Of a stretch of 64,000 nucleotides of DNA, positions 60,101 to 63,100 are shown one piece after another. The stretch spans positions 576,001-640,000 of the forward strand of contig CM000435.1 in the NCBI GenBank assembly GCA_000165345.1. The letters run 5' to 3'. The stretch's first letter is position 1. Every line of letters starts with the position of its first letter. The position numbers are program-made.

Positions 60101-63100
60101 TCATCGAATACAGAGTCAACTTTAATTTTTCTCGTTTCAGTTTCTAGCAGCAATCTGATGCTTTCATCTCTCCTTTCATCATATGTTCTAGTACCTGCAA
60201 TCTCCTTCAATAATCTCAATCTAGAGGCATCAGACATAGTTGCAAGCTCTGCTACCTTTCCCTGCCGAACTATGAAATATGGATTATTCCTGGATATACC
60301 GCAACTTTCTAAAATTGAATCAAAGTCCTTCTTCGAAATATTTTTCCCCATTACCTGCCATTCGTTTTTCTGACTAGAGCTACGAAAAATCCTTTTAATA
60401 GTAACAACATCTTCATCGTACATAGAGAGACGACGACCAATATTATCAAGCGACAATTCAACATACGCCTCTGTTGCTTGTGGGCCAAGGCCTTCATGTA
60501 AAAGCGCACGTCTTTCAACCAGAGTATTTCCAAATGAATCAGAGAGTAAAAACTGTATTGCTGCAAGGATATTGGATTTTCCACTACCATTTAGGCCTAC
60601 AATGCAGTTACATCCAGGATGGAATGATATAGTTGTTTCATCCCTATATGTCTTAAACCCGCATATTTTGAGCTCTTTGATATACATTATATTCAATAAC
60701 CCGAGCAGAAAGAATATTAATTTTCCAAATAGAATTCTCTCAGGTATCAAAGAATTGTTATTTTGGTAAACTCTTTGCTATAAATTTCCGCATTTATTGA
60801 AAATACAGTATTTGTGGGGAGGAGCGGTATATGCATGTAGCGGTATTTTAAAGAATAGAAACAATTTCCGAATCATTAAAAAAATTAAAACTAGATTATG
60901 ATTAACAAACTATTTCTTCTGCCTTATTTTCGGGAGAGGAATTGTGTATTCGTCCAGTGAAAACGTTGATTTTACCCCAAATTTTTGCTCATTCAGTGCA
61001 AACATAGATTCAACATCCCAGCCGGAACCTGCTTTTGTGCCAAACGTCCTTTTATCTTTTGTGGCATCGGAAAAATATGGCTTTGGCTTCTTCTTATTTT
61101 GAGAGTAAATTTGAGATGTAGATGAAGGTTGCCCTCTTCTCTCATTAGCATTAAATTTAACTCTTACGAACAAAGGAAGGCTAGATAAGGGTGGCCCCCC
61201 AAGGTCCGCATTCTGTAGTCTTCTAATCACTGCTGGGTTTAGATTCTTTGGCAAATTTGGAATTATTCCGCCAGGATTACTTGGATTATAAAGCGGTATT
61301 CTCTTTAAAACTTCAATCCAGCCACGTAAATTACGCGTGAAATGTGAAACTCTAAAAAATTGATTCGAGTCCGGCTTCTCAATAATTGATTCCAAGTTTT
61401 CATGAACTTTTTCGCTACTCCCGATCAAATCTTCGTCTTCACTATTATGAATATCTTGCCTATCAATACAAGAAATATAATCATTCGAGATGCAATTTAG
61501 ATTTCCATCAGCATGCGAAAAATTGTCAGAATTCTTGGGTTTTCTATGTCTAAGTGATTGATTAGCATGCCAGTTTGGGAGTGACGTAAAACTAAACCAT
61601 CTTATTTCTGAAATTTCCTTTCTTTTTTTTGGTTCTAATGGAGTATTTTCATCAATTCCGGGTATAAGAAACAACTTTATTGTTTGCTCTTCTACTTGTT
61701 TCTCAATATAAATTGAATCGTTGAGGTGTTTAGTCACGTCTATTCCAAGCTCTTCGTATGCCTCGCGGATTGCGCACAAACTATCCTCCTCCATTTCATC
61801 CATTTTCCCTCTAGGAAACATAAACCTGTTACCATTCCACGGTTTTACTAACACGCACTTAGTAAACTCCTTGTTAATTAAAATTACTCCTCTTAGAGGT
61901 ATTGTCTTGCAATATCGCTTCCAATTTAAAAGAAATTTGTCATGCTCTTCAGGAGATGAAACGAAATGTCGTAAAATTGGACAATCTTCAGCAACAAATT
62001 GTCCAAAGACTCGCAAAGAAAGTTTTGGTAGAACATGTGAATATTTGTCGTACCACATATCCTCGTACCACCAATAAGCAGCCTGTATTTGAAAGTATAA
62101 ATGAATTGCATCCTCAAGTAAATTTACGGGAAGATTTGTAAAAAATCTTGCGTAACAATCATCTATTGCCTCTGAAAATGCAGCCTCCATATCTTTATAT
62201 GCAGCCTCCATATCAAAATTGCTGATTAGTCTTTCCATCGGTCCGTTTACTTTGTTTTTCTTTTTTGTAGTAGTTTTAAGTGTATCTATTTGTTCTTGTG
62301 GTATTGAATCTCGACTATAGCGATTCATAAAAATTCCCCTTACCTTAGATAAAATAATATCTTCGGGTGAATATTTCATAGCAATATCTGAAGCTGTCTT
62401 TTTTTCGTCAAGTTGTGCCGATTGTTCAAAATTGTTCATTACACTTTCTCTTGTTAAATTTGGTGGTAAAATATTCAAATTATGGGATCTATCGCGATCA
62501 ATTAAAAATTTTTTAAGAATATTTGATCCTAATGTTTCTTGAAATCCTCCTGAGATTTCAATCCTATCTCCTATTTTATGGCCAGAGTTGTTTGCCTCAT
62601 CTTCGTTTTTCAGAAAGCAATCATTTAGTCGATTAGAACAGATTTTATTCATGTTGCTATTAAAAATACTGGATTGCACTAAATTGTCATCTCTCAAATT
62701 ATTAATTTGATTGCATTTACCTTTTATATCAATAATGTATCCTGATTCAGAAGAATGTGTGGTATCTCTACCAGCATTTTCACTTCGAGAACTTAGACAA
62801 TTTGTTGAGCCAAAACTGCCATTTTGTGTTACTATATGAGAGAGGCTCTCTATAAGTTGATCCATAAATGAAGAACTATGATTTGTGTTTGTTTTTACTT
62901 CATGAATTACTTTTTCTGTATTTGCCTAAAATAATTAATAATTACTAGCGCCATATAATAGCGCTAATCAGAAATGAATTACATTGTAAATTTAAAAAAA
63001 AAAAGTTCTCGATAACTTAAGATGATCGACAACTTTGTCTCAGAAAATACACTTTAACATACTTCTTAATTGTATTACGTAAAAAGCTTTTTAATCATTT

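What the first reader, a model, noticed from the sequence alone, without database searches (positions are those of the whole stretch)
60910..62865. Dcp2 decapping enzyme carrying an ataxin-2 LsmAD-like C-terminal motif and a long N-terminal extension
Box A and a textbook Nudix box identify Dcp2. The last about 35 residues read GSGWDVESMFALNEQKFGVKSTFSLDEYTIPL, which matches the conserved core of the ataxin-2/Pbp1 LsmAD region (GWDpndMFryNEenyGVvSTYDssLssYTvPLE). LsmAD is associated with Lsm-domain RNP assembly. Its presence on a decapping enzyme would link decapping to Lsm/ataxin-2-type interactions in a way not seen in model Dcp2 proteins, where Edc3/Lsm contacts go through HLM peptides. The about 220-aa N-terminal extension before Box A is also atypical.
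Basis: partly seen in the sequence, partly recalled or inferred. Interest (0 to 1): 0.5.

Follow-up and report, generated by a model that had tools for sequence, protein, structure and literature searches.

The report
Dcp2 with ataxin-2-type tail motif
This is the Cryptosporidium mRNA-decapping enzyme Dcp2, whose last 45 or so residues are a strongly conserved peptide motif that it shares with the ataxin-2/Pbp1 protein family and with Dcp2 of other apicomplexans and a haptophyte but not of fungi or animals, which points to a decapping-enzyme docking site that has not been studied.

Summary
Window 60910..62865 (minus strand) is one intronless 651-aa ORF that encodes a catalytically intact Dcp2 (Box A, Nudix box, Box B) from a Cryptosporidium parvum/hominis-type genome.

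The tail (residues 603-644) is as conserved as the catalytic core across the genus, so it is not a read-through artefact. Its similarity to ataxin-2 is statistically real in both directions. A tail profile retrieves essentially only Dcp2 and ataxin-2 proteins from 1.84 billion sequences. A profile built only from ataxin-2 hits the tail at 43 bits.

It is not an LsmAD domain. Only the first 35 or so residues of the conserved ataxin-2 segment are present, and half of that lies upstream of the Pfam LsmAD model, which explains why Pfam finds nothing. The LsmAD helices and the SM-ATX domain are absent.

The motif is not specific to Cryptosporidium. It occurs in Dcp2 of Plasmodium, coccidia, Cardiosporidium, a haptophyte and many metagenomic eukaryotes, sometimes in 2-3 copies and always preceded by an invariant TFG. 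It is absent from 101 fungal and other Dcp2 proteins.

GenBank already names the protein "ataxin2 related nudix domain", but I found no paper on it. Its function is inferred: a docking peptide. The partner is unknown.

The parts
60910..62865 (-). Complete intronless Dcp2 gene, 651 codons plus stop
   Evidence: ORF listed. The identical 651-aa gene model is present in NCBI assembly GCA_035232765.1. Thirteen Cryptosporidium orthologues of 635-665 aa were found.
62188..62865 (-). Genus-specific N-terminal extension, residues 1-226. It is mostly fast-evolving and predicted disordered.
   Evidence: The first 13 residues (MDxLIESLSHxV) are 38-100% conserved. Residues 14-148 fall to 15-18% identity in distant species. 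AF2 pLDDT is below 50 for residues 14-155 and 165-216. There is no Pfam hit. In Plasmodium Dcp2 the core starts at about residue 45, and in coccidia at about 580-700.
62266..62421 (-). Conserved island inside the N-terminal extension, residues 149-200 (QLDEKKTASDIAMKYSPEDIILSKVRGIFMNRYSRDSI...)
   Evidence: 42-100% identity across the genus, against 15-18% for the flanking sequence in distant species. Short predicted helices at 158-164, 170-181 and 190-199. No family assignment.
61912..62172 (-). Dcp2 Box A domain, residues 232-318
   Evidence: Pfam PF05026, 72.5 bits. Aligned to S. pombe Dcp2.
61570..61890 (-). Nudix hydrolase domain, residues 326-432, containing the Nudix box at residues 353-375 (window 61741..61809)
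   Evidence: Pfam PF00293, 44.5 bits. The G-x5-E-x7-RE-x2-EE-x-G pattern matches at residue 353. The catalytic residues are invariant in alignment A1.
61369..61563 (-). Variable insert between the Nudix fold and Box B, residues 435-499
   Evidence: 18-40% identity in distant species. pLDDT is below 50. Box B lies 131 residues after the Nudix box, against a median of 80.5 in 88 Dcp2 proteins.
61303..61362 (-). Box B helix, residues 502-521 (QFFRVSHFTRNLRGWIEVLK)
   Evidence: Matches the V-x-[PH]-F-x3-L-x2-W-[IV] signature found in 88 Dcp2 proteins. AF2 predicts a helix at 507-521 with pLDDT 84-89. F503, V506, F509, L513, W516 and L520 are invariant.
61156..61299 (-). Conserved segment after Box B, residues 523-570 (…LPKNLNPAVIRRLQNADLGGPPL…), function unknown
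   Evidence: 67-100% identity across the genus. P539, N541, L550 and Q551 are invariant and N552 is nearly invariant (at least 90%) across all 17 aligned Dcp2 proteins. No PDB or Pfam match.
61060..61155 (-). Fast-evolving basic, Ser-rich linker, residues 571-602
   Evidence: Identity falls to 25% in C. ryanae, C. bovis and C. muris. pLDDT is below 50.
60934..61059 (-). Conserved C-terminal motif, residues 603-644: KDKR-TFG-TKAGSG-WDVESMFALNEQKFGVKSTFSLDEYTIPL. The TFG box is residues 607-609 (window 61039..61047). The part shared with ataxin-2 is residues about 610-646.
   Evidence: 83-100% identity across the genus, equal to the catalytic core. The profile search retrieves Dcp2 and ataxin-2 proteins. 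The reciprocal ataxin-2 profile scores 43 bits on residues 610-646. AF2 predicts a helix at 618-629 and a short helix at 637-640.

Best explanation
The gene encodes the Cryptosporidium Dcp2 decapping enzyme. It has an intact catalytic core (Box A, Nudix fold, Box B), and that core is embedded in lineage-specific and largely disordered extensions.

The last 45 or so residues form a conserved peptide module with three parts: a TFG box, a Trp-initiated amphipathic helix (GWDVESMFALNEQK), and an extended FGVKSTF…YTIPLP segment.

Shown here: from the Trp onward the module is homologous to the most conserved stretch at the start of the ataxin-2/Pbp1 LsmAD region. It is an ancestral feature of Dcp2 in Apicomplexa. 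It also occurs in a haptophyte and in many uncultured eukaryotes. It is absent from fungal and animal Dcp2.

Inferred: it works as a docking motif in the disordered C-terminal tail. It would tether the decapping enzyme to an mRNP partner that ataxin-2 engages through the same motif. That is the role the helical leucine-rich motifs play in fungal Dcp2.

Speculative: the partner is the DDX6/DOZI helicase. The reasons are that the invariant N[DE]xTFG prefix resembles the DDX6-binding (D/E)TFG box of Pat1 and LSm14, and that Plasmodium DOZI is proximal to both Dcp2 and ataxin-2. An LSm-fold protein is the alternative candidate.
For: Identity as Dcp2.

Purifying selection on the tail: residues 603-644 are 83-100% identical across 12 Cryptosporidium species and 88% identical to C. 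muris, the same as the catalytic core. The adjacent linker falls to 25%.

Homology to ataxin-2:
- The tail profile finds 243 proteins at E<=1e-3 in a library of 1.84e9.
- Among the best 148, Pfam finds NUDIX in 36, DCP2 in 27, LsmAD in 75, SM-ATX in 45 and PAM2 in 22.
- The reciprocal ataxin-2-only profile scores 43 bits on residues 610-646.
- A Dcp2 relative, P0189, passes the Pfam LsmAD threshold itself (27.2 bits against a 25-bit cutoff, model positions 1-45), alongside Box A and Nudix.

Distribution: the motif is present in Neospora, Besnoitia, Cystoisospora, Plasmodium ovale, Plasmodium gallinaceum and Cardiosporidium Dcp2, and in the haptophyte Diacronema lutheri. In all, 42 Dcp2-type cluster representatives carry it, and 17 more came from the homology search.

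Docking-motif inference:
- The motif sits in low-confidence, variable regions at very different distances from the core, from about 100 to more than 1200 residues.
- It is C-terminal in Cryptosporidium but internal in Plasmodium and the coccidia.
- It occurs in 2-3 tandem copies in at least 10 Dcp2 clusters.
- AF2 predicts the same short helix right after the Trp in both Dcp2 and ataxin-2.

TFG/DDX6 lead: T and F of TFG are invariant, and G is at least 90% conserved, in 47 Dcp2-type motifs. The profile's best local match lands on the known TFG box of Pat1, PATL1 and LSM14A, using sequences I recalled from memory. The TFG boxes of LSm14/CAR-1 and Pat1 dock on DDX6 RecA2 (PMC8514580, PMC8984151). 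DOZI proximity labelling recovers Dcp1, Dcp2 and an ataxin-2 homologue (PMC11750109).
Against: There is no experimental or structural evidence for any partner. No solved structure contains the motif.

The profile search of PDB chains does not retrieve Pat1, LSM14 or CAR-1 peptides even at E<=10. The TFG scores are only 3-8 bits, and the sequences were recalled from memory.

The ataxin-2 copies lack the TFG part. The ATXN2 LSmAD fragment 185-317 did not co-precipitate DDX6 (PMC11254730). In Cryptosporidium the residue before TFG is Arg, not Asp or Glu.

The AF2 models have low confidence for the tail (pLDDT about 50-63) and low pTM (0.49 and 0.40). I could not inspect contacts, so an intramolecular role is not excluded.

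Most motif-bearing Dcp2 proteins are unnamed metagenomic sequences, so the taxonomic breadth is only partly known.
Confidence: 0.6

Rival explanations
1. The tail is a genuine, if truncated, LsmAD domain acquired from ataxin-2. It links Dcp2 to Lsm-domain RNP assembly, for example by binding an LSm fold such as ataxin-2 SM-ATX, LSM12, LSm14/CITH or Lsm1-7.
For: There is significant motif-level homology to the LsmAD region. Some Dcp2 relatives reach or approach the Pfam LsmAD threshold: P0189 at 27.2 bits and P0185 at 23.4 bits. In ataxin-2, LSmAD is reported to assist folding and RNA binding of the neighbouring LSm domain (PMC11898529), which would be compatible with an LSm-contacting peptide.
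Against: Only about 35-39 residues match, and the protein ends where the LsmAD helices begin. There is no Pfam LsmAD hit for the Cryptosporidium tail and no SM-ATX domain in the protein. Known LSm-related partners of ataxin-2 (LSM12, DDX6) map to the LSm domain, not to LSmAD (PMC11166328, PMC11254730). AF2 of the ataxin-2 N-terminus gives pTM 0.40, so there is no confident evidence that the motif packs on the LSm domain.
Confidence: 0.2
2. The motif is an intramolecular or RNA-contacting regulatory element of Dcp2, for example an autoinhibitory or activating segment that folds back on the catalytic core or extends the RNA-binding surface. It would not be a docking site for another protein.
For: Fungal Dcp2 C-terminal regions contain autoinhibitory elements (established knowledge, not tested here). 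The tail is conserved as strongly as the core. The flanks of the motif are basic (KKKPKP…KDKR, PKIRQKK).
Against: Tandem duplication of the motif, and its very variable distance from the core (about 100 to more than 1200 residues), argue against a fixed intramolecular contact. The same motif works in a completely different protein, ataxin-2, which has no Nudix domain. [quoted passage not shown] AF2 does not place the tail confidently on the core.
Confidence: 0.15
3. The resemblance to ataxin-2 is chance or convergent evolution of a short linear motif, or the tail is a read-through or annotation artefact that is not part of the real protein.
For: The Cryptosporidium tail has no Pfam LsmAD hit. 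I could not examine any transcript data.
Against: The E-values reach 1e-8 for ataxin-2 proteins in a search of 1.84e9 sequences, and the hits come almost exclusively from two families. The reciprocal score is 43 bits against a 3.2-bit background. Eleven or more positions are shared in register (G, W, M, F, N, G, V, S, T, Y-T, P-L) with a single 2-residue indel. The tail is near-invariant across 13 species and also present in Cardiosporidium, Plasmodium and the coccidia. The downstream SMC gene starts only about 220 bp after the stop, and the public gene model equals the ORF.
Confidence: 0.03

Closest known systems
Dcp2 (Nudix mRNA-decapping enzyme; S. pombe, K. lactis, S. cerevisiae and human DCP2)
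   Same: Box A, Nudix fold with a complete Nudix box, and a Box B helix. Identity to S. pombe Dcp2 is 39% over the core. Like fungal Dcp2, it has a long, disordered, fast-evolving region after the core that carries short conserved motifs.
   Different: It has a genus-specific N-terminal extension of about 226 residues and an extra insert of about 50 residues before Box B. Its C-terminal motif is of the ataxin-2 type, not the helical leucine-rich motifs of fungal Dcp2. The motif is absent from 101 fungal, metazoan, heterolobosean and streptophyte-alga Dcp2 proteins.
Ataxin-2/Pbp1/CID3-4 LsmAD region (Pfam PF06741 and the conserved GW…MF…NE segment just upstream of it)
   Same: It shares the ordered pattern G-W-[DS]-x2-[ED]-M-F-x2-N-[EA]-x2-[FY]-G-V-x-S-T-[FY]-…-Y-T-x-P-L. 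AF2 predicts a short helix starting right after the Trp in both proteins.
   Different: There is no SM-ATX/LSm domain, no LsmAD helices (E..A..IA.EIE) and no PAM2. The gap between ST[FY] and YT is two residues shorter. The Dcp2-type copies carry an invariant TFG box 5-9 residues upstream that ataxin-2 lacks. The function of this segment is undefined in ataxin-2 too.
(D/E)TFG box of Pat1/PATL1 and LSm14/Scd6/CAR-1, which binds DDX6/Dhh1 RecA2
   Same: The Dcp2-type motif begins N-[DE]-x-T-F-G followed by small or polar residues and then an aromatic residue. This is like LNDETFGDN…DFDF in yeast Pat1 and NDDTFGSGAVDDDW in PATL1 (both recalled from memory). The profile's best local alignment falls on those boxes.
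   Different: The match is only 4-6 residues long and scores 3-8 bits. It is not detected in a PDB profile search. There is no FDF motif. In Cryptosporidium the preceding residue is Arg. Binding is untested.
Helical leucine-rich motifs (HLMs) of fungal Dcp2 and metazoan Dcp1
   Same: A functional analogy only. Both are short conserved peptides, sometimes repeated, embedded in the disordered tail of a decapping subunit. HLMs recruit activators (Edc3/Scd6 LSm domains) and promote P-body assembly (established knowledge; PMC8984151).
   Different: There is no sequence relationship, and the partner of the present motif is unknown.

Membership tests
Dcp2 decapping enzyme | Box A domain N-terminal to the Nudix domain | tested here: met
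   PF05026, 72.5 bits against a 28-bit cutoff, residues 232-318.
Dcp2 decapping enzyme | Nudix fold with a complete Nudix box G-x5-E-x7-R-E-U-x-E-E-x-G-U | tested here: met
   PF00293, 44.5 bits. The pattern matches at residues 353-375. Foldseek's top hits are Dcp2 structures at E about 1e-19.
Dcp2 decapping enzyme | Box B helix after the Nudix fold | tested here: met
   The signature V-x-[PH]-F-x3-L-x2-W-I is at residues 506-517. It is shared with 88 Dcp2 proteins but displaced by an insert of about 50 residues. AF2 predicts a helix with pLDDT 84-89. A phmmer search of this short segment against the PDB found nothing.
Dcp2 decapping enzyme | m7GpppN-RNA hydrolase activity and Dcp1 binding | not testable with these tools
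   Needs biochemistry. The catalytic residues are conserved.
LsmAD domain (Pfam PF06741) | Match to the Pfam model at or above the 25-bit gathering score | tested here: not met
   There is no hit for the full protein or for the 54-aa tail, even at E<=10. The model starts in the middle of the motif, and the genuine human motif alone scores only 16.5 bits. The Dcp2 relative P0189 does pass, at 27.2 bits.
LsmAD domain (Pfam PF06741) | Charged helices after the YTxPL segment (model positions about 22-72) | tested here: not met
   The ataxin-2 profile aligns only at positions 6-44, and the protein ends 5 residues later.
Ataxin-2/Pbp1 family | SM-ATX (LSm) domain upstream of LsmAD, usually with PAM2 | tested here: not met
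   No SM-ATX, LSM or PAM2 hit in the protein.
Ataxin-2/Dcp2 shared GW-MF-NE-FGV-ST-YT-PL motif (defined here) | Significant match to the motif profile in both directions | tested here: met
   The tail profile finds ataxin-2 proteins at E from 1e-8 to 1e-4 in 1.84e9 sequences. The ataxin-2 profile hits the tail at 43 bits.
DDX6-binding TFG box (Pat1, LSm14) | (D/E)TFG paired with an FDF-type or Trp pocket motif, and binding to DDX6 RecA2 | tested here: inconclusive
   TFG is invariant in the Dcp2-type motifs, and there are weak on-target local matches of 3-8 bits to sequences recalled from memory. No PDB chain is retrieved. Binding cannot be tested here.

The most novel reading that the evidence does not exclude
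The TFG–GW–MF–NE–FGV–ST–YT–PL module is an ancient, previously undescribed docking motif shared by two families. Ataxin-2/Pbp1, in all eukaryotes, and Dcp2, in Apicomplexa, haptophytes and other non-opisthokont lineages, would both use it to bind the same mRNP factor, most plausibly the DDX6/DOZI helicase. In these lineages, where Edc3 is reported to be absent, the decapping enzyme would then be wired directly to the repression and storage machinery. The molecular function of the ataxin-2 'LsmAD' would then be that of a partner-binding peptide.
Probability: 0.2. Interest if true: 0.75.

Novelty: new variant of a known kind. Interest (0 to 1): 0.5.

Why it matters
Dcp2 regulation is understood almost entirely from fungi and animals, where activators dock on helical leucine-rich motifs. 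This finding shows that a large group of eukaryotes, including the parasites Cryptosporidium, Plasmodium and Toxoplasma-like coccidia, carry a different conserved motif on Dcp2. It is as conserved as the active site.

The same motif is also the most conserved and least understood piece of ataxin-2, a protein involved in human disease. Because the motif occurs in two otherwise unrelated proteins, there is a simple experimental route to its function: find what binds both. That experiment would also address how translationally repressed mRNAs are handed to, or protected from, decapping in apicomplexan transmission stages.

The finding is limited in three ways. The link already exists in database product names. 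The partner is unknown. All functional statements here are inferences.

Tried and rejected
1. I rejected it as uninformative after finding that the Pfam LsmAD model starts in the middle of the motif.

2. The word-indexed homology search with the 59-aa tail found no candidates. The query was too short for that tool, and one of the three searches was lost.

3. PDB sequence searches with two motif profiles, A2 and A5, found no solved structure with the motif and no Pat1 or LSM14 peptide. The DDX6/TFG idea therefore stays a lead only.

4. A phmmer search of residues 495-570 against the PDB, meant to confirm Box B, found nothing. I replaced it with a signature scan across 174 Dcp2 proteins.

5. AF2 of the full protein and of an ataxin-2 N-terminus was meant to show whether the motif docks on the Nudix core or on the LSm domain. 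pTM was low (0.49 and 0.40) and no contact or PAE output was available, so the result is inconclusive.

6. The idea that LsmAD binds DDX6 directly is weakened by PMC11254730. The ideas that it binds LSM12 or Mkt1 are rejected, because those partners map elsewhere on ataxin-2 (PMC11166328, PMC12345631).

7. Attempts to name the taxa of the metagenomic motif-bearing Dcp2 proteins gave mostly unnamed sequences. One is filed under Quercus rubra on a 14-kb contig, which is probably contamination.

8. Literature searches for LsmAD with Dcp2, for 'ataxin2 related', and for apicomplexan DCP2 with ataxin-2 found no paper describing the motif on Dcp2.
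Full report
**Observation.** The window is AT-rich (about 30% GC) and has long intronless genes. One search lists one ORF at 60910..62865 on the minus strand, 651 aa long with an ATG start. The exact protein is an annotated 651-aa gene on a 1.36-Mb chromosome of NCBI assembly GCA_035232765.1. A bromodomain gene lies upstream, and an SMC gene starts about 220 bp downstream. The protein is 99% identical to a C. hominis protein and has full-length orthologues in 12 other Cryptosporidium species or lineages. 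The organism is therefore a C. parvum/hominis-type Cryptosporidium.

**Identity.**
- Pfam finds DCP2 Box A (residues 232-318, 72.5 bits) and NUDIX (326-432, 44.5 bits).
- S. pombe Dcp2 structures align to residues 227-437 at E=5e-44.
- A Foldseek search of the AF2 model returns Dcp2 structures first.
- The Nudix box is complete (residues 353-375), and all catalytic residues are invariant among 17 aligned homologues.
- Box B is present (QFFRVSHFTRNLRGWIEVLK). It matches a signature found in 88 other Dcp2 proteins, but it lies 131 residues after the Nudix box against a median of 80.5. That reveals a variable, disordered, lineage-specific insert at residues 435-499.

**N-terminal extension.** The 226 residues before the core are real coding sequence. 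The first 13 residues and an island at 149-200 are conserved throughout the genus, while residues 14-148 fall to 15-18% identity. The region is predicted to be mostly disordered and has no family match. It is genus-specific. Plasmodium Dcp2 starts its core at about residue 45, and coccidian Dcp2 at about 580-700.

**The tail is functional.** Residues 603-644 are 83-100% identical across the genus and 88% identical to C. muris. That equals the catalytic core, whereas the linker immediately upstream falls to 25%. The motif also occurs internally, not at the C-terminus, in two Cardiosporidium Dcp2 proteins. Read-through or annotation artefacts are therefore excluded, as far as sequence evidence can exclude them.

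**Relation to ataxin-2.**

*Why the proposed Pfam test is uninformative.* It finds nothing, but I showed the reason. I entered a human ATXN2 segment from memory and Pfam verified it as SM-ATX plus LsmAD. PF06741 begins at 'YGVVSTYD', so the GWDxxxMFxxNE half of the motif lies outside the model. The human motif on its own scores only 16.5 bits, and the Cardiosporidium motif 13.9 bits, both on model positions 1-21.

*Unbiased test.* I searched a profile of ten Dcp2 tails against 1.84 billion cluster representatives. It returned 243 proteins at E<=1e-3. Pfam scans of the best 148 found NUDIX in 36, DCP2 Box A in 27, LsmAD in 75, SM-ATX in 45 and PAM2 in 22, and almost nothing else. The motif therefore lives in just two families. 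One hit is clearly vertebrate ataxin-2, carrying NGWDPNEMFRYNEENYGVVSTYDSSLSSYTVPLERDNS.

*Reciprocal test.* A profile built only from ataxin-2 sequences hits residues 610-646 of the Cryptosporidium protein at 43 bits. The next-best translation of any ORF in the window scores 3.2 bits. The alignment stops at profile position 44, and the protein ends five residues later, where the LsmAD helices would start.

*Intermediate sequences.* The metagenomic Dcp2 P0189 has Box A, Nudix and an LsmAD match above Pfam's own cutoff (27.2 bits, model positions 1-45). P0185 reaches 23.4 bits.

*Conclusion.* This is motif-level homology. It is not a full LsmAD domain, and the protein is not a member of the ataxin-2 family.

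**Distribution.**
- Local classification found 42 Dcp2-type cluster representatives with the motif downstream of the Nudix domain, at distances from about 100 to more than 1200 residues. Ten of them carry 2-3 tandem copies.
- Named carriers are Neospora caninum, Besnoitia besnoiti, Cystoisospora suis, Plasmodium ovale, P. gallinaceum, Cardiosporidium cionae and the haptophyte Diacronema lutheri. The remainder are unnamed metagenomic sequences. One is filed under Quercus rubra on a 14-kb contig and is probably contamination.
- A profile search for Dcp2 in general returned 118 further proteins. Of these, 17 (all metagenomic) have the motif and 101 do not. The 101 include all the named fungal Dcp2 proteins plus Oikopleura, Naegleria, Willaertia and Mesostigma.
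- The Dcp2-type motif is longer than the part shared with ataxin-2. A TFG box is invariant 5-9 residues upstream of the Trp. Ataxin-2 hits align only from the GW onward.

**Mechanism.** No solved structure contains the motif. AF2 predicts the same local shape in Dcp2 and in ataxin-2: a short amphipathic helix starting right after the Trp, followed by an extended or short-helical segment. Confidence is low to moderate, and there is no confident docking onto the Nudix core or the LSm domain (pTM 0.49 and 0.40; contacts not inspectable).

The literature assigns no partner to this part of ataxin-2:
- LSM12 maps to the LSm domain (PMC11166328).
- DDX6 maps to the LSm domain, via RNA (PMC11254730).
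- Mkt1 maps to a mid-region (PMC12345631).
- PABP maps to PAM2.
- LSmAD alone is poorly folded, does not bind RNA and only assists the LSm domain (PMC11898529).
- Deleting LSmAD has modest effects (PMC7946432, PMC12827272).

Four features are the hallmarks of a docking peptide: placement in disordered tails, variable distance from the core, tandem repetition, and occurrence in two unrelated proteins. I therefore infer a docking role, analogous to the helical leucine-rich motifs of fungal Dcp2.

The identity of the partner is speculative. The N[DE]xTFG prefix resembles the (D/E)TFG box through which Pat1 and LSm14/CAR-1 contact DDX6 RecA2 (PMC8514580, PMC8984151). The motif profile's best local alignment falls exactly on that box in yeast Pat1, human PATL1 and LSM14A, all entered from memory. 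The scores are only 3-8 bits, with 0-1 of 200 shuffles reaching them. Plasmodium DOZI proximity labelling recovers Dcp1, Dcp2 and an ataxin-2 homologue together (PMC11750109). Against this idea, PDB chains of Pat1 and LSM14 are not retrieved, ataxin-2 lacks the TFG part, and the ATXN2 LSmAD fragment did not bind DDX6 (PMC11254730).

**Novelty.** Public product names already call this protein 'ataxin2 related nudix domain-containing protein (RNA processing phosphatase/ATPase domain)', so the resemblance was noticed at annotation. I found no paper that describes it. LsmAD with Dcp2 returns one irrelevant preprint. A 2026 survey of the ataxin-2 family and its chimeric forms does not mention Dcp2, Nudix or Cryptosporidium. 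Surveys of apicomplexan RNA-binding proteins list DCP2 and ataxin-2 separately.

This analysis adds five points:
1. The motif is a lineage-wide feature of Dcp2 in Apicomplexa and beyond.
2. It is absent from opisthokont Dcp2.
3. It carries a TFG prefix specific to Dcp2.
4. It can be repeated in tandem.
5. It corresponds to only the first third of the LsmAD region.

**Verdict.** This is a known enzyme with an unstudied, conserved docking-type motif that it shares with ataxin-2. Interest is moderate, and all functional claims are inferences that await binding experiments.

Noticed in passing
window 61369..61563 (-), Dcp2 residues 435-499: A variable, disordered insert separates the Nudix fold from Box B. 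Box B lies 131 residues after the Nudix box, the largest spacing among 88 Dcp2 proteins (median 80.5).
   Followed up: partly
window 61156..61299 (-), Dcp2 residues 523-570: The segment LPKNLNPAVIRRLQNADLGGPPLSSLPLFVRVK is conserved across the genus. P539, N541, L550 and Q551 are invariant, and N552 is nearly invariant, across all 17 aligned Dcp2 proteins, including Cardiosporidium and two other relatives. It has no Pfam or PDB match and its function is unknown.
   Followed up: partly
window 62266..62421 (-), Dcp2 residues 149-200: A conserved island (QLDEKKTASDIAMKYSPEDIILSKVRGIFMNRYSRDSI) sits inside the otherwise fast-evolving N-terminal extension. It has short predicted helices, is specific to Cryptosporidium, and has no family assignment.
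   Followed up: partly
window about 62946..62966 (-), 80-100 nt upstream of the Dcp2 ATG: The sequence TAGCGCTA…TGGCGCTA contains GGCGC-type elements. From memory, these resemble the E2F-like motif reported upstream of many Cryptosporidium genes. A two-codon upstream ORF (ATG AAG TAA) lies at about 62895..62903.
   Followed up: no
proteins P0027, P0029, P0031, P0034, P0036, P0040, P0043, P0058, P0060, P0071 (metagenomic Dcp2): These carry two or three tandem copies of the TFG…GW…MF…N…G motif after the Nudix domain. A variant ending …FTYDGNPxTFG chains one copy into the next.
   Followed up: partly
proteins P0023 (226 aa), P0044 (1517 aa), P0050 (238 aa): Proteins without a Dcp2 core that carry two copies of the ataxin-type motif. 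Their architecture was not examined.
   Followed up: no
protein P0080 (592 aa), filed as Quercus rubra KAK4538889.1 on a 14-kb contig: A motif-bearing Dcp2 attributed to an oak genome. It is probably a contaminant contig from an associated microbial eukaryote. Fungal-like Dcp2 proteins filed under Quercus suber (P0294, P0298) look similar in this respect.
   Followed up: no
window 56863..60750 (-): The neighbouring SMC-family gene. The mechanical ORF list starts it at a TTG (1295 aa), whereas the public gene model gives 1274 aa starting about 220 bp downstream of the Dcp2 stop. The two genes are tightly packed head to tail.
   Followed up: no
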